Positions 25,076 through 63,464 of a stretch of DNA of 64,000 nucleotides are shown here, in pieces. The notes below the pieces were generated by a model, which did no database searches, was not told the origin of the DNA, and worked only from the letters and a program-made list of their open reading frames with translations. A program made the translations under genes and the position numbers. Every line of letters begins with the position of its first letter. Position 1 is the first letter of the stretch. The stretch comes from the human T2T-CHM13v2.0 reference genome, Homo sapiens. The DNA is taken from NCBI RefSeq assembly GCF_009914755.1, contig NC_060927.1, one strand, 5' to 3'.

Positions 25076-25402
25076 TAATAAGATTATGTAAGCTCACATA
25101 ATTAACATTTTAAGTGGCCTGGTCTCAGCCTGTGCCAGCAGCTATGCTCATGTTGAAGTCACTGTCTAAGTCAAGGGAATGCTTTCCCTATAACCATATA
25201 AATATCATCCCAATTATTTATGTATCTCCCTTCTCTCTCTTGCTAAACTGTGGGAACCTCAGATATAGGCAATGTAGTATTACCCACGTATTTGTGTTCC
25301 CAGCCCCAGGAACTTAAAAATGATACAGAAACAAAGGGAATCTTCATGAGCCCCCACAATTCTCATGTCTTTTCCTAATCTAGATAGAAATAAAGAAGTC
25401 TC

Positions 25403-25718
25403 AGCCAGGTGTGGTGGCTCATGCCTGTAATCCCAGCACTTTGGGGGGCCGAGGTGGGCGGACCACCTGAGGTCAGGAGTTCGAGACCAGCCTGGCCAAC
25501 ATGGTGAAACCCTGTCTCTACTAAAACTACAAAAATTAGCCAGGTGTGGTGGTGTGCGCCTGTAGTCCCAGCTACTCAGCAGGCTGAGGCAGGGAATTGC
25601 TTGAACCCAGGAGGCAGAGGTTGCAGTGAGCTGAGATCGTGCCACTGCACTCCAGCCTGGGTGACAGAGCAAGACTCCGTCTCAAAAAATACATAAATAA
25701 AAATAAAATTTAAAAAAT
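25403..25718 (+). mobile_element. AluS (left arm only)
   Basis: Full Alu; paralogous site near 63400 is empty. Confidence 0.95.
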
Positions 25719-27840
25719 AAGTCTCTAGTCTTTGAAAGAAACTTATTCACAATTATAAAAATAAAGAGTTAAAAAATTGAAAATGCATATGCTTACTTAG
25801 TTCAAAATAATTATACATGTTCATAATGGGGAAAAATCCAAATTCATAAACGTTTTGATTTAGTTAACATAATTTAAATACCTGTGGTCTGAGTATATGT
25901 CTATGCTTCAGAAACAACGTGCCAATAAATATTCCACACCTAGGGGTGGGAAAGTGTTTTACTTCCCATTAGGTTGCAGATGTCTTAGAAACACATTCCT
26001 GCACCACAGCTTCAAGAAATCCAAATAATGACCTGATCTGCTGGTTTCCAAGCTACCCTACCAGGAGCAAGTCAGAGGCCCTGCAGGGCTCCTCGGTAAG
26101 CCCTCGAAATCCCTCTCCCCTCAATGACCCCACCACAGCAGCTCCACTTTTGAATATTTTACCAGTGCGTGTTCCAGGTAAGATTTCCTTTCACAAAAGG
26201 TTTTCGTGGGTAAGGAAAAATGAAAACTTGCTGAATTACTCTAAGCCCCTCTCTCCAGTTGTTTTTATAATGGAACCACCTGTTGATTTCCAGGCTTGCT
26301 CGAAAAGAAAACACTGCTATAAATGCATAGAGCGTCTTCCCTTCTGAAAAGGAAACTTGTGCTAGAGGTTACAGAAAACAGCAAGAATGGGATTGCAAAG
26401 AATAAAGGTGGCTGACTAACTCTAGACTTCCTAACTGAGGACTTACATCAGGACCAGAACAAATTAGGTCTAAATCTACAGTGGGCTCCAGGGTGGAAAT
26501 GGAGGTCTCACTTAAGAAGCAGGAGAAATCTCAAAACTCAGAGCCTAGAATTTAACCCCAGGGCCTCCGTGTTAGCATCAGCGGCTGCAGAGCCAGGATC
26601 AGGACTTCTCAAATCCTGACATATAGACAGGGAGGCTGAGAACACCTGTCAACCAAAAACACATGATTCCAGCAGTGAATCCCTGGGATCAAGCTCTTCA
26701 GCAAGCAGTGTGCTGGTTCACCCTAAGAAGGACTTCCAGAAAACGGGTAGTGGCCTAGGCTGACTGCTGGAAACCACGATTCTCATGGGAACAAATTAAA
26801 AATTCAGCAACTGCTGTGTTCTCTTTAGAGAATGGAGTGAAGCGTGCTTTCTCATGAAAAAGCAGCGGGAGGAAACTTTTCCCCGAAAGGAATACAGCAA
26901 AAGGACCAAATGAGAGTCATTATGTGCAGAAAAATCCCTTGTCAAGAGAAATGCACAAATGAGGAAGTATTAGGAATCTGCCTGGTTTTAAATAAAAACA
27001 CACCTTCCCATCCTTGGAAGGGAGAAAACCATAATTATTCCTGTGGCAAAAGGGCTGTGGGGACAATGCAGGTTGTCCTGAACCTGTGTGAACACCTGGT
27101 GAACTAGTTTACCCTGTCTGGCACTCACTCAGCCTTGGCCCAGGAGCCAAAGAGCTGGGATCAAAACCAACTATTGCCAAAGAGCCAAAGGAAAGACAAC
27201 CAAGGAATAGGATGCTTTAAAACAGGACCTGTAAGTAAATAATACAAAGAAGAGCAGTGTCAAAAAGCAGACTTCCTTTTCTTCTCATCATCCATGATTT
27301 ATGAATTTATGGATCAAATAATGTAAAATATATCCAGAATATTAATCACCCACCACACTCATGATGCTGAAGTAGTGACAATATCTACACAGACCAAAAA
27401 AAAAAAAAAAAACATTTCACCAATTAGCAGCAGCCAATGAGGCCCATTATTTCCTGAGGCAAGTCTTTTTCAAGAAAAGAAGACAGCTTTCCCTTGGTTC
27501 TGTGAAAGCTATCTCTGAGTAGCATTCTTCCCCATGAAAAGTAAATAATTCCACCGTGAAAGTCCAAGAAAAGTAGTGTTTGGCCAGTTGTACTTCTCCA
27601 GGGGATGAGGAGCTCACCTTTGAGCTTGCATCCCAAATTGCTAGGTGGGAGAGAATTGCATTTGTTTCTAATCTCTTGAGGCTTCAGCACCCCAAGACTA
27701 GAGAGTAGAAAACCTCAGTGGTCCTCCAGGCAAAGTGGGCCCGAGGGTTCAGAACGCTCGCTCACCATGTCTGAAAAGCATGCAGAGAGATCATAGTACT
27801 TTGACTTCTGATATAACCTTCTGGGGTGTTTATGTACTTA

Positions 27841-28127
27841 TTTTTTTTGAGACGGAGCCTCGCTCTGTCATCAGGCTGGAGTGTGGTGGCGTGATATCGG
27901 CTCACTGCAACTTCTGACTCCCTGGTTCAAGCGATTCTCCTGCCTCAGCCTCCTGAGTAGCTGGGGTTACAGGCACATGCCACCATGCCCAGCTAATTTT
28001 TGTACTTTTAGTAGAGACGGGGTTTCACCATGTTGGCCAGGATGGTCTTGATCTCCTGACCTCGTGGTCTGCCTGCCTCGGCCTTCCAAAGTGCTGGGAT
28101 TACAGGCATGAGCCACCGCGCCCGGCC
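27841..28127 (-). mobile_element. AluS (Sc-like), no visible TSD
   Basis: Full Alu. Confidence 0.95.
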
Positions 28128-60414: not shown

Positions 60415-62244
60415 TCACTACTGCCAATGTGGCACTGTAGATTAGCAATACTGATTATATCTGATGGAGGACAACAGATGTTATCATGTGCAAATTTAGG
60501 ATGCTGAAGAAGTGACAAGAAAAGGATCAGAGCCTTGCCACAACATAGAATTTATGTAAGTGCTTGAATGATGTCATCTTTCTTGAAGTCCAAGATGTGC
60601 TGGAAGGTGAGCAGGAAATAAACTTAGTCATTTTATTTTGAATCAAGCTGTATCTTTGGGAATAACAAATGCATAGTACAGAATGTGTTGCTTGGTTATT
60701 TATAAGCTTGGGTTCAGAGAGTTAATGCAAATGCAAAAGCAAGCAAGGGGCTGCTGTCCTCTTAGTAAGGATGGTGTGTGCAGCTGAGTCAGAGGAAGGG
60801 TTGGAAGCCTAGCCCCAGTGCTGGCTAGCTTTGGGAGTGTAAGCAAAGTCTCAACCTAATTTGAAGGCTCTCTGTTCCCATCTGTGAAATGGGTACAAAC
60901 CCCCCATGATCTGAGCTGTAGTGAAAGAAAGGAGGCCATGCACGTCAAGATCCAGGCAGGTGGTCAGGCTCAGTAAGGGAGAGGTCATGTCACTCTGGTA
61001 CTTGAGACCGAGACCGGACTGGTAACATAAGCCTTCTGGGCCTTCCGGGGCCCTGAAGCATGGATCACGGGGACCACTGGTTGGCGCCACAGATGCTCAA
61101 CCAGCAAAGAGGGGAAGGGAGAAAGCAGAGCCCAGGGAGGGCTGGAGGGGATCGTTCCTGGTGTTGATCCAGAAAACCACAGGGTTCCTTGTCTTGGTTT
61201 TCAACAACTTCTCTTTCTGTGTGTGTGTGGATGGATGTAGCACATTGTTATAACCAAGCTCAAAATAATGCAAAACTTTGATTATATATGTTGTTACCAT
61301 GGTTAACAAATGTATTCTTCCATCTGAGAATCCTCAGTAGTACAGAGAGAGGTTTTGCATTTAGAATTCTATTTAGACTTTTTATTCCTTGAAGCATCAA
61401 AAGTACATAAACACCCCAAAAGGTTATATCAGAAGTCAAAGCATTATGATCTCTCTGGATGCTTTTCAGACATGGTGGGTGAGCGTTCTGAATCCCAACC
61501 CCGCCCCCAATGCCCCCCAGCCGCCACCCGGCCAGCTTTGCCTGGAGAGCTACTGAGATTTTCCACTATCTAGTCTTGGGATGCTGAAGCCTCAAGAGGT
61601 TAGGAATGAATGCAATTCTCACCCACCTGACAATGTTGGTATGCAAGCTTTGGTTGCTTTGGTTGGTATGAGACCACCTCATCCTACTGGAGAAGTTATT
61701 TTCTTGTCTTTCACCATGGAATCATTTACTTTTGTGGTGGGGGAGGAATGCTACTCAGAAAGAGATTTCAAAGAACGAAGGAAAAACTTCCTTATCTTCT
61801 TCTTCTTCTCCTTATTCTTCTTTTTTCTTTTAGTAGAGACAGGGTTTTGTCCTCCAGGTTGCAGCACAGTGGCAAGTTATGCTCACTGTACCCTGGAACT
61901 CCTGGGCTCAAGGAGTCCTCAAGCCTCCCAAGCAGCTAGGAGCACAAGTGCATGTCACTTCTTAAAGGAGACTTGCCACAGAGAATAATGGGCCACACTG
62001 GCTTTTGTTACTTGGTGAAATGATTTTGTTGGTCCATATAGATACTGCTACTCTACGGAGCAACAAAACCATTTCACCAATTAAATTAACCACCTAGCAT
62101 CATGCATGTGGTGATTAACAACTTGGATATATTTTGCTTAAGCTATTTGAAGAATCCCTAAGTTATGGATAAAGGGAAGAAAAATAAACCTGCCTTTTGA
62201 CACTGCTCATGTATCTTCTTTGTATCATTATTTACTTACAAGCC

Positions 62245-62533
62245 TTTTTTTTTTTTTTTTTGAGACAGTCTTGCTCTGTCTGAAGTACAGTGGTGTGATC
62301 TCGGCTCACTGCAACCTCTGCCTGCCGGGTTCAAGAGATTCTCCTGCCTCAACCTTCCTAGTAGCTAGGATTACAGGCGCCTGCCACCACGCCTGGCTAA
62401 TTTTTGTATTTTTAGTAGAGATGGGGTTTCGCCATGTTGGCCAGGCTGGTCTCGAGCTCCTGACCTCAGGTGATCTGCCTGCCTTGGCCTCCCAAAATGT
62501 TGGGATTACAGGTGTGAACCACCGCGCCCAGCC
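62245..62533 (-). mobile_element. AluS (right arm only)
   Basis: Full Alu. Confidence 0.93.
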
Positions 62534-63464
62534 ACAAGTCGTATTTTAAAGCGTCCTATTCCTTAGTTATAATTCCCTTGACTTTTAACAACAGTTGGTT
62601 TTGACCCCAGCTCCCTGGTGCCTGGACCTCCAGATCCACCCTGGAGCCCACAGGTGGATTTACATCTAATATGTTACAATCCTGATGTAAATCCCCAGGA
62701 GGAAGCCTGGCGTTAGCCACCCTTACTCTGCACAGTGCTATCCTTGCTGTTGCTTTCATCTCTGGCAGGAGTTTCCTTTTCACAAGGGAGAAGGCTCTAT
62801 GCATTTATAGCAGTGTTTTATTTTCCAGCAAGCTTAGAAATCTACAAGATGGTTCCGCTGCTTATAAATACTGCCGCAGAGAGGGGCTTGGACTAGTTCT
62901 AGAGTGCTGAATTTTTCCTTAGCCATGGAAGTCACTTGTGAAAGGAAATCTTACCTGGAACCTGCATTGGACAAGCATTCAAAAGTAGGGATGATCTGGT
63001 GGGGCCATTGATGGGAGAGGATTTTGAGGAGTTACTGAGGACCCCTGTGGGACCCCTGACCTGCTTCTGGCAGGGCAGCTTGGAAACCAGCAGATGAGGT
63101 GACTGCTTGCGTCTCTTGAAGCTGTGGTCCAGGAGTGTGTTTCTAAGACATTTGCAACCTAATGGGAAGTAAACCACTTTCCCATCAGCTGTGGTATGTT
63201 TTGTAGTAACCACATAATCCCAAACCAAAGATATTTAAATTATTTTACATCAAGAGGCTTGTGAATTTTGGATTTCCCTCATTACAAGCCATGTATAATT
63301 ATTTTAAGCCAAACAAACGTGATGTTTAACTTTTTAACTTTTTTTTTTTTTTTTTTTTTTTTGTATTTTGGAATCATTTTCTTTTCAAAGACTAAGGACT
63401 TTCTTGTTTATTCCTAGATTAGAAACAGAGCCAGGGAAGAGGGGGTACTGAAAGGGCATAGCCT

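What the first reader, a model, noticed from the sequence alone, without database searches (positions are those of the whole stretch)
25370..63425. Old ~11-12 kb inverted duplication of non-coding DNA directly downstream of IL12A
Seen: unique sequence at ~25370-37385 is collinear with the reverse complement of ~52290-63425, with a ~15 kb spacer. Anchors include 25950-26015/63115-63183, 27640-27700/61570-61628, 33800-34010/55770-55995 and 37270-37345/52325-52398. By eye identity is roughly 70-85%. The MER21 LTR and a MIR are shared, while FLAM/AluJ/AluS/AluY insertions are arm-specific. Inference: the duplication postdates MER21 and predates the oldest Alus here, so it is probably too diverged for >90% segmental-duplication tracks. 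It may have duplicated a regulatory block next to an immune gene.
Basis: partly seen in the sequence, partly recalled or inferred. Interest (0 to 1): 0.8.

Follow-up and report, generated by a model that had tools for sequence, protein, structure and literature searches.

The report
Ancient inverted duplication downstream of IL12A
Two ~11-12 kb stretches of non-coding DNA just downstream of the human IL12A gene are mirror-image copies from one very old duplication, now only about 77% alike; this is a real evolutionary relic of a known kind with no demonstrated function.

Summary
Outside Alu DNA, 13 collinear minus-strand alignments join arm A (about 25343-37368) to arm B (about 52304-63452) across a 14.9 kb spacer. 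The same-strand control shows nothing comparable.

Apart from four short stretches with other genomic relatives, Alu-free arm DNA matches only itself and the other arm genome-wide. This is therefore a locus-specific duplication, not two copies of a mobile element.

About 6.2 kb aligns at 77.7% identity, K2P 0.27. All 25 Alus (9 in A, 16 in B) are arm-specific. That includes a same-site pair whose target-site duplications carry arm-specific variants.

An old repeat shared by both arms puts the event at about 0.8 of that repeat family's age. My estimate is roughly 55-90 million years.

A sharply bounded 1.4 kb block is 87.7% alike. A later arm-to-arm gene conversion is the most likely cause.

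IL12A-AS1 and LINC01100 use paralogous splice acceptors in mirror image.

A published IL12A eQTL and autoimmune-disease variant maps to the spacer, not the arms.

Regulatory function is untested. The structure is an ordinary "ancient segmental duplication".

The parts
25343..37368 (.). Arm A of the inverted duplication (12.0 kb; 9.0 kb after removing 9 Alus). The firm outer edge is 25712. The 25343-25403 stretch left of the boundary Alu is only a probable part of the arm.
52304..63452 (.). Arm B, the reverse-complement paralogue of arm A (11.1 kb; 6.9 kb after removing 16 Alus). The firm outer edge is 63408.
37369..52303. Spacer of about 14.9 kb with no arm homology (measured 37371-52303: 14,933 bp, 11.3 kb after subtracting 14 Alu hits). 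It contains the LINC01100 start (45281), one IL12A-AS1 exon (50102-50166) and, by approximate mapping, the published IL12A eQTL/autoimmune variant GRCh38 3:160015740.
   Evidence: annotation supplied with the task
27627..29028 (.). High-identity block in arm A (87.7% to arm B against 75.1% elsewhere). Probably a gene-conversion tract.
   Evidence: 2*dlogL 83.5; edges 0.63->0.85 and 0.88->0.67
60478..61645 (.). The same high-identity block in arm B.
28333..28893 (-). ~550-bp unit inside the block whose only other genomic relative is on chr1 (80% identical to each arm). The arm B copy lies at 60613-61184.
30045..30987 (+). Abundant old interspersed repeat shared by both arms (4077 first-look candidates genome-wide). 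In arm A it is interrupted by a 179-bp A-only insert at 30125-30303. The arm B paralogue lies at about 57480-58523 and is interrupted by the Alu at 57966-58300.
29092..29422 (-). Arm A Alu at the same paralogous site as arm B Alu 60119-60412. It is an independent insertion with its own target-site duplication (GGCAGTGGCAG on both sides).
60119..60412 (+). Arm B Alu at the same paralogous site (target-site duplication GGCAGTAGTGA / GGAAGTAGTGA). It is the youngest Alu in the arms (non-CpG K2P 0.044).
33826..33971 (-). IL12A-AS1 exon in arm A. Its acceptor AG is paralogous to that of the last LINC01100 exon (A 33971 maps to B 55811).
55811..56055 (+). Last LINC01100 exon in arm B, the mirror-image paralogue of the IL12A-AS1 exon. 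The GTAAGT donor used in arm A is destroyed here by a 4-bp gap.
62955..63158 (-). Predicted coding exon of LOC124906252 in arm B. Its paralogue in arm A (25973-26177, + strand, 81.4% identical) keeps AG/GT, but the reading frame used in B has stop codons in A.
26507..27139 (.). Largest arm-A-only segment (633 bp) with no relative elsewhere in the genome. It was most likely deleted from arm B. Similar A-only unique segments lie at 31533-32128 and 35524-36073.

Best explanation
A single ancient inverted segmental duplication. A block of about 9-10 kb of non-coding DNA 3' of IL12A already carried old interspersed repeats. It was copied once in reverse orientation about 11 kb away; that is the spacer length without Alus. 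The event dates to roughly 55-90 million years ago, near or before the base of the primates. Since then the two arms have decayed largely neutrally to about 77% identity (K2P about 0.30 outside one block). They received 25 independent Alu insertions. Arm B lost about 2 kb by deletion. At about half the age of the structure, one ~1.4 kb tract was homogenised by arm-to-arm gene conversion. Splice signals inherited by both arms are now used in mirror image by lncRNAs that run outward from the spacer (IL12A-AS1 in arm A, LINC01100 and LOC124906252 in arm B). What is shown: the homology, its inverted collinearity, its uniqueness in the genome, the arm-specific Alus, the divergence figures, and the paralogous splice sites. 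What is inferred: the absolute date, the formation mechanism (replication template switching, or duplication followed by inversion), gene conversion as the cause of the high-identity block, and the lack of function.
For: 13 of 14 non-Alu minus-strand HSPs are collinear, against 3 unrelated same-strand HSPs. Alu-free pieces of arm A hit only themselves, arm B and short stretches with other genomic relatives. 6217 confidently aligned columns give 77.7% identity and K2P 0.270, or 0.261 without CpG. Of 25 Alus only 2 cross-arm pairs lie within 100 alignment columns, and both are independent. The evidence for that is arm-specific target-site duplications, 22 and 15 private differences against 5 shared, and opposite orientation 72 columns apart with the intervening 75 bp paralogous (2 of 500 shuffles reach the score). 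Precise empty sites lie opposite old Alu monomers. On the shared old repeat d(A,B) is 0.342, against a mean of 0.416 over 190 pairs of 20 other copies. The high-identity block has abrupt edges and extends beyond the 550-bp unit that has a chr1 relative. The acceptor AG sites are exactly paralogous.
Against: The oldest Alu-like insertions have non-CpG divergence of 0.17-0.28 from the window-derived, AluS-biased consensus. That equals or exceeds the per-arm divergence of about 0.15, although they must post-date the duplication. So either the arm divergence is underestimated because unalignable parts were dropped, or Alus evolve faster, or the consensus is inappropriate for them. On the shared repeat, arm A is about as close to its best unrelated copy (0.335) as to arm B (0.342), so that repeat alone does not prove sisterhood. 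The 20 copies were chosen by similarity to arm A, which biases distances to A downward. The chr1 relative of the 550-bp unit is closer to the arms (about 80%) than neutral decay since before the duplication would predict. Exon-paralogous columns are slightly more conserved than background (0.803 against 0.752; 22 of 2000 random placements reach this). Both of these last observations could mean some constraint instead of pure neutrality. No other species could be examined.
Confidence: 0.85

Rival explanations
1. The arms, or at least the 1.4 kb high-identity block with its 550-bp three-copy unit, are functional cis-regulatory or lncRNA elements kept similar by purifying selection. On this reading the duplication doubled a regulatory module next to IL12A.
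For: The block is 87.7% alike against a 75.1% background. The 550-bp unit has a single further relative on chr1, still about 80% identical, with a ~130-bp core nearly invariant in all three copies. Exon-paralogous columns are slightly more conserved (0.803 against 0.752). Splice sites are retained in both arms. The locus carries autoimmune-disease associations and an IL12A eQTL (passages read in PMC7907152 and PMC13764249).
Against: High A/B identity extends about 700 bp beyond the three-copy unit on one side and about 135 bp on the other, and ends abruptly, as a conversion tract would. An Alu has inserted inside the block in arm A, at 27838-28127. CpG sites kept in the chr1 copy have decayed in both arms. 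The annotation supplied with the task lists no RefSeq functional element inside the arms. The published lead variant maps to the spacer. The exon-conservation signal is small and confounded by higher GC content (0.46 against 0.39).
Confidence: 0.15
2. The structure is much older than its divergence suggests. It was a true palindrome kept homogeneous by recurrent arm-to-arm gene conversion, and conversion ceased at different times in different segments. The 0.30 and 0.14 divergences would then date the end of conversion, not the duplication.
For: There are two clearly different divergence classes with sharp boundaries. Arm-to-arm conversion is the rule in large palindromes (abstracts of PMC8600007 and PMC3723533 as listed).
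Against: Outside the one block, divergence is fairly uniform across 9 blocks (K2P 0.26-0.34). The shared old repeat gives d(A,B) only about 18% below the family's inter-copy distance, which leaves little room for a long homogeneous phase after that repeat inserted.
Confidence: 0.15
3. Artefact: the apparent homology comes from clusters of the same interspersed repeats, or from two insertions of one large mobile element in opposite orientation.
For: Some aligned DNA is repeat-derived: A 30045-30987 (abundant family), 27623-27817 and 28333-28893 (each with a relative elsewhere).
Against: About 4.4 of the 6.2 kb of aligned sequence has no other detectable relative in the 3.1 Gb genome (my sum). 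Homology runs through the flanks of each repeat. The order and orientation of all 13 blocks is preserved.
Confidence: 0.02

Closest known systems
Ancient (70-80% identical) segmental duplications as described by Pu, Lin & Pevzner 2018 (SDquest, PMC5991524; passages read)
   Same: A low-copy, non-repeat sequence present twice on one chromosome, about 77% identical, broken up by later transposon insertions, and older than the ~35-million-year horizon of standard duplication maps.
   Different: I could not check whether this pair is in their output. It is intrachromosomal, inverted and only 15 kb apart. That paper's main text holds no occurrence of the word 'inverted'.
Large sex-chromosome palindromes (criteria in Jackson et al. 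2021, PMC8327919: arms >8 kb, arm identity >99%; passages read)
   Same: Two inverted arms longer than 8 kb around a unique spacer, with evidence of at least one arm-to-arm sequence exchange.
   Different: Arm identity is 77.7% instead of above 99%. The structure is autosomal, carries no protein-coding gene family, and shows no ongoing homogenisation. At most it is a decayed palindrome.
Operationally defined segmental duplications (>1 kb, >=90% identity; Bailey et al. 2001 as quoted in PMC6129265)
   Same: Length and low copy number.
   Different: It fails the identity threshold. It also exceeds SEDEF's default limits (total error <=25%, small mutations <=15%), because substitutions alone are about 22-25% and Alu gaps add far more.
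Inverted duplications produced by replication template switching (FoSTeS/MMBIR-type events; recalled, not checked in any call)
   Same: The architecture: a duplicated segment in inverted orientation separated from its source by a short unduplicated stretch.
   Different: Those are recent, often pathogenic events with readable junction microhomology. Here the junctions are too eroded to read.

Membership tests
Ancient segmental duplication (SDquest sense) | Long sequence (>=1 kb) present in more than one genomic location | tested here: met
   Arms of 12.0 and 11.1 kb with 6.2 kb confidently aligned.
Ancient segmental duplication (SDquest sense) | Not a common interspersed repeat (low copy number) | tested here: met
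   Alu-free arm A pieces hit only themselves, arm B and four short stretches with relatives elsewhere in the whole genome. The tool's sensitivity to very old short repeats is limited.
Ancient segmental duplication (SDquest sense) | Identity roughly 70-90% | tested here: met
   77.7% overall; 75.8% outside and 87.0% inside the block as first delimited. The change-point fit gives 75.1% and 87.7%.
Standard segmental duplication (>=90% identity) | >=90% sequence identity over >=1 kb | tested here: not met
   The best 1.1-kb block reaches only 87.7%.
Large palindrome (arms >8 kb, >99% identity) | Inverted arms >8 kb around a spacer | tested here: met
   12.0 and 11.1 kb arms and a 14.9 kb spacer. 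Without Alus the arms are 9.0 and 6.9 kb.
Large palindrome (arms >8 kb, >99% identity) | Arm-to-arm identity >99% maintained by gene conversion | tested here: not met
   77.7% identity. Only one candidate old conversion tract.
Two copies of one transposable element or provirus | The same sequence recurs at many unrelated genomic sites | tested here: not met
   Only short parts of the arms have relatives elsewhere.
Duplicated cis-regulatory module | Regulatory activity or chromatin marks at paralogous positions; cross-species constraint | not testable with these tools
   No epigenomic or multi-species data were available. The annotation supplied with the task shows no RefSeq functional element inside the arms. 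There are weak hints only.
   No repeat library was available. Alu identity was established only through a profile built from the window's own Alus. Part of the 550-bp unit looks MIR-like to me from recall only.

The most novel reading that the evidence does not exclude
The duplication built a mirror-symmetric regulatory and lncRNA architecture around the spacer that holds the common IL12A eQTL and autoimmune-protective variant. On this reading the 1.4 kb block, with its three-copy 550-bp core, is a constrained element present on both sides. The paralogous exons of IL12A-AS1, LINC01100 and LOC124906252 descend from one ancestral transcript. Past arm-to-arm exchange may also have flipped the spacer relative to IL12A in some lineages.
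Probability: 0.12. Interest if true: 0.6.

Novelty: new member of a known kind. Interest (0 to 1): 0.33.

Why it matters
The arms flank the DNA that carries a common variant lowering IL12A expression and protecting against several autoimmune diseases (PMC13764249, passages read). Paralogous sequence at 75-88% identity next to such a signal can confuse read mapping, probe design and the interpretation of reporter or CRISPR experiments. It also explains why two differently named lncRNAs share exon sequence. For evolution, this is a clean, datable example of a decayed autosomal inverted duplication with one old conversion tract and two Alus that hit the same paralogous site independently. Nothing here shows that the duplication itself affects IL12A.

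Tried and rejected
1. A global MAFFT alignment of the raw arms forced unrelated Alus onto each other. It was discarded in favour of chained local blocks and an Alu-excised alignment.

2. A whole-arm search of the genome was swamped by Alus (39 of 52,662 candidates scored). It was replaced by searches of the Alu-free pieces.

3. A shared Alu would have made the duplication younger than Alus. This was rejected for the same-site pair and for the near pair.

4. Extension of the duplication towards IL12A or beyond the window was rejected. The only hits outside were a 170-bp match at 67% and a 68-bp match. Window 21347-21637, next to the first of these, also matches the distant locus L006 and looks like an old repeat.

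5. The Rfam scan of 25000-64000 found no RNA family at gathering thresholds.

6. Literature: 0 papers hold both 'IL12A' and 'inverted duplication'. One unrelated paper holds 'IL12A' and 'inverted repeat'. The 25 listed of 66 papers naming IL12A-AS1 or LINC01100 are GWAS or expression studies by title and abstract.

7. Warburton et al. 2004 (PMC524409) is not held, so I could not check whether that survey lists this repeat.

9. Base-level placement of GRCh38 3:160015740 failed. The computed window position 40455 reads T inside an Alu, and assembly indels make the offset unsafe. Only the statement that it lies in the spacer is kept.

10. A conserved protein in the LOC124906252 exon paralogue was rejected, because the frame used in arm B has stop codons in arm A.

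
Full report
**Observation.** I ran a BLASTN of the window against itself and flagged every position hit three or more times as multi-copy. That gave 37 intervals totalling 17.3 kb, essentially Alus. Fourteen minus-strand HSPs lie mostly outside that DNA. Thirteen of them form one strictly collinear chain from A 25712-26507 / B 63408-62625 to A 37275-37370 / B 52399-52304, at 64-82% identity over about 6.5 kb. 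The fourteenth (1-297 / 57723-57410) is another copy of an old repeat. The same-strand control yields only three short unrelated HSPs.

**Edges.** On the inner side homology ends at A ~37368 / B ~52304. On the outer side the firm edge is 25712/63408. A collinear 55-bp match across the boundary Alu suggests A ~25343 / B ~63452, but it is not significant on its own (score 19, shuffle maximum 21). Adding 10 kb on each side of the window revealed no continuation. The spacer measures 14,933 bp (counted from 37371), or 11.3 kb without its 14 Alu hits.

**Duplication or repeat clusters.** The window's own 3.1-Gb genome could be searched. A whole-arm query was swamped by Alus, so I searched the Alu-free pieces of arm A separately. 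Each piece finds itself and arm B. Only four stretches have relatives elsewhere:
- A 30045-30141 plus 30303-30987, an abundant old repeat with 4077 first-look candidates.
- A 27623-27817, with one chr1 hit at 81%.
- A 28333-28893, with one chr1 hit at 80%.
- A 25771-25961, with one hit 340 kb away on chr3.

By my sum, about 4.4 of the 6.2 kb of aligned sequence has no other detectable relative. Arm-to-arm homology also runs through the flanks of each repeat. This is a locus-specific segmental duplication that carried older repeats with it. The caveat is that the search tool may miss very old short repeats.

**Alus.** A profile built from 37 Alus of the window finds 9 elements in arm A and 16 in arm B. 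After excising them the arms measure 9036 and 6924 bp. I mapped every insertion point onto the other arm. Only two cross-arm pairs lie within 100 alignment columns.
- The first pair, A 29092-29422 and B 60119-60412, occupies exactly the same paralogous site in the same relative orientation. Each arm's two target-site duplications carry that arm's own variants: GGCAGTGGCAG twice in A, and GGCAGTAGTGA / GGAAGTAGTGA in B. The tails differ. The two Alus have 22 and 15 private differences from consensus against 5 shared. They are therefore two independent hits on one A-rich site of the kind Alu insertions favour, as I recall.
- The second pair, A 36550-36841 and B 53041-53333, is in opposite relative orientation at the two ends of a paralogous 75-bp AT-rich segment. 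Only 2 of 500 shuffles reach the arm-orientation score.

Precise empty sites lie opposite old monomer-type insertions. The target-site duplication CTTATCACTATG surrounds B 52399-52528, with a single copy in A. CTGTGTGCTT surrounds the nested A elements 34790-35417, with a single copy in B. In the poorly alignable stretch A 31533-33717 / B 56055-56935, which holds 4 A Alus and 2 B Alus, empty sites cannot be read. There the evidence for arm-specificity is only that position and orientation disagree.

**Divergence and age.** Over 6217 confidently aligned columns identity is 77.7% and K2P is 0.270, or 0.261 without CpG sites. Nine blocks lie at K2P 0.26-0.34. One block stands out at 0.144 (chi-square p 1.7e-15). 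Per-arm divergence outside that block is about 0.15.

Local Alus of the common type sit at a median non-CpG divergence of 0.088-0.089 from the window consensus, so the duplication is about 1.7 times as old as they are. On the shared abundant repeat d(A,B) is 0.342, against a mean of 0.416 among 190 pairs of 20 other genomic copies. That places the duplication at about 0.8 of the family's age. Note that the 20 copies were picked by similarity to arm A.

Using recalled calibrations that I did not check here (AluS about 30-40 My; about 0.17 substitutions per site on the human lineage since the human-mouse ancestor), I estimate 55-90 My.

One tension remains. The oldest Alu-like insertions show 0.17-0.28 against an AluS-biased consensus, which is at or above 0.15, although their empty sites show that they post-date the duplication. 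The arm divergence is therefore probably an underestimate. If conversion acted early, the date is in any case a minimum.

**The high-identity block.** A likelihood change-point fit places it at A 27627-29028 / B 61645-60478. It covers 1105 columns at 87.7% inside against 75.1% outside, with 2*dlogL of 83.5. The edges are abrupt: 0.63 to 0.85 on the left and 0.88 to 0.67 on the right. The right edge is tightly defined at 29003-29038.

Inside the block lies a ~550-bp unit (A 28333-28893, B 60613-61184). Its only other genomic relative is chr1:230698782-230699331, which is 80.2% and 79.8% identical to the two arms. A three-way alignment shows that A/B identity stays near 88-90% well outside the part shared with chr1. 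An Alu has inserted inside the block in arm A only.

I favour one arm-to-arm gene conversion at about half the age of the structure. Purifying selection on an exapted element remains possible. In its favour, the chr1 copy is more similar than neutral decay since before the duplication would predict, and a ~130-bp core is nearly invariant in all three copies.

**Transcripts.** The acceptor AG of IL12A-AS1 exon 33826-33971 (minus strand) and that of the last LINC01100 exon 55811-56055 (plus strand) sit at exactly paralogous bases (A 33971 = B 55811). The GTAAGT donor used in arm A is destroyed in arm B by a 4-bp gap, and there the exon runs on to its annotated end.

The predicted coding exon of LOC124906252 in arm B (62955-63158) has an 81.4% identical paralogue in arm A (25973-26177) with AG and GT retained. 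The frame used in B has stop codons in A, so no conserved protein is indicated.

Columns paralogous to annotated exons are slightly more alike than the background (0.803 against 0.752; 22 of 2000 random placements reach this). They are also more GC-rich, so this is only a weak hint. No Rfam family is present.

**Context.** IL12A-AS1/IL12A is a reported Behcet locus (table passage in PMC7907152). A 2026 study reports a common variant at GRCh38 3:160015740, '19 kb downstream of IL12A'. It lowers IL12A expression in some immune cells and protects against five autoimmune diseases (passages in PMC13764249).

IL12A ends at window 20734, so 19 kb downstream is about 39.7-40.7 kb. An offset from recalled GRCh38 gene coordinates, whose 7185-bp span equals the window's, gives about 40455. 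Both estimates fall in the spacer, about 3 kb from arm A, and not in an arm. Base-level placement is unsafe. According to the annotation supplied with the task, no RefSeq functional element lies inside the arms.

**Comparison with known kinds.** Segmental duplications are operationally defined at >=90% identity, and SEDEF by default tolerates <=25% total and <=15% small-mutation error (PMC6129265). This pair exceeds both limits. Pu et al. 2018 describe 70-80% identical 'ancient SDs' as a real but under-catalogued class (PMC5991524), and that is where this structure belongs. It fails the palindrome criterion of >99% arm identity (PMC8327919).

I found no paper describing an inverted duplication at IL12A. 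Warburton et al. 2004 could not be read. Whether the pair is in self-chain, SDquest or BISER tables could not be checked.

**Verdict.** This is a real, old, decayed inverted duplication and a new member of a known kind. It has neat internal evidence for its history but no evidence of function. The regulatory idea stays open and would need multi-species and epigenomic data.

Noticed in passing
window 25748-25961; L006 4913-5125 (chr3:163152312-163152524): The outermost ~216 bp of arm A has a third copy about 340 kb downstream on the same chromosome. It is 88% identical to arm A but only 67% to arm B, so it was copied from arm A well after the arms split.
   Followed up: partly
L003 1501-2050 (chr1:230698782-230699331): This is the only other genomic relative of the 550-bp unit inside the high-identity block. 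It is bounded by a common repeat on one side and lies near an Alu on the other. It retains several CpG sites that have decayed in both arms.
   Followed up: partly
window 18130-18215 and 18244-18332: The two 42-nt coding exons of IL12A (18166-18207 and 18283-18324) and their flanks are tandem duplicates of each other (77.5% over 89 bp in the same-strand control).
   Followed up: no
window 30125-30303: A 179-bp arm-A-only insert interrupts the shared old repeat. It overlaps a stretch (30172-30315) that matches its own reverse complement at 74%, which resembles a small hairpin-type transposon inserted after the duplication.
   Followed up: no
window 51842-52045: A degenerate minisatellite (14-bp and 55-bp periods) lies about 260 bp from the inner edge of arm B. 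No counterpart lies next to arm A.
   Followed up: no
window ~39700-40700 (computed 40455): The published IL12A eQTL and autoimmune-protective variant GRCh38 3:160015740 maps by approximate offset into the spacer, in or beside the Alu at 40222-40501. The window reads T at the computed position.
   Followed up: partly
window 34790-35417: Nested Alus: an older minus-strand Alu (34790-35007 plus 35305-35417) is split by a younger plus-strand Alu (35002-35304).
   Followed up: no
window 1-297: A further copy of the abundant old repeat carried by both arms lies here. It matches A 30744-30959 on the same strand and B 57410-57723 on the opposite strand.
   Followed up: no
arm A against arm B overall: The arms are asymmetric. 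Arm B holds 16 Alus against 9 in arm A, and lacks about 2 kb of genome-unique sequence that arm A retains in three large A-only segments. With so few events this is not statistically meaningful.
   Followed up: partly
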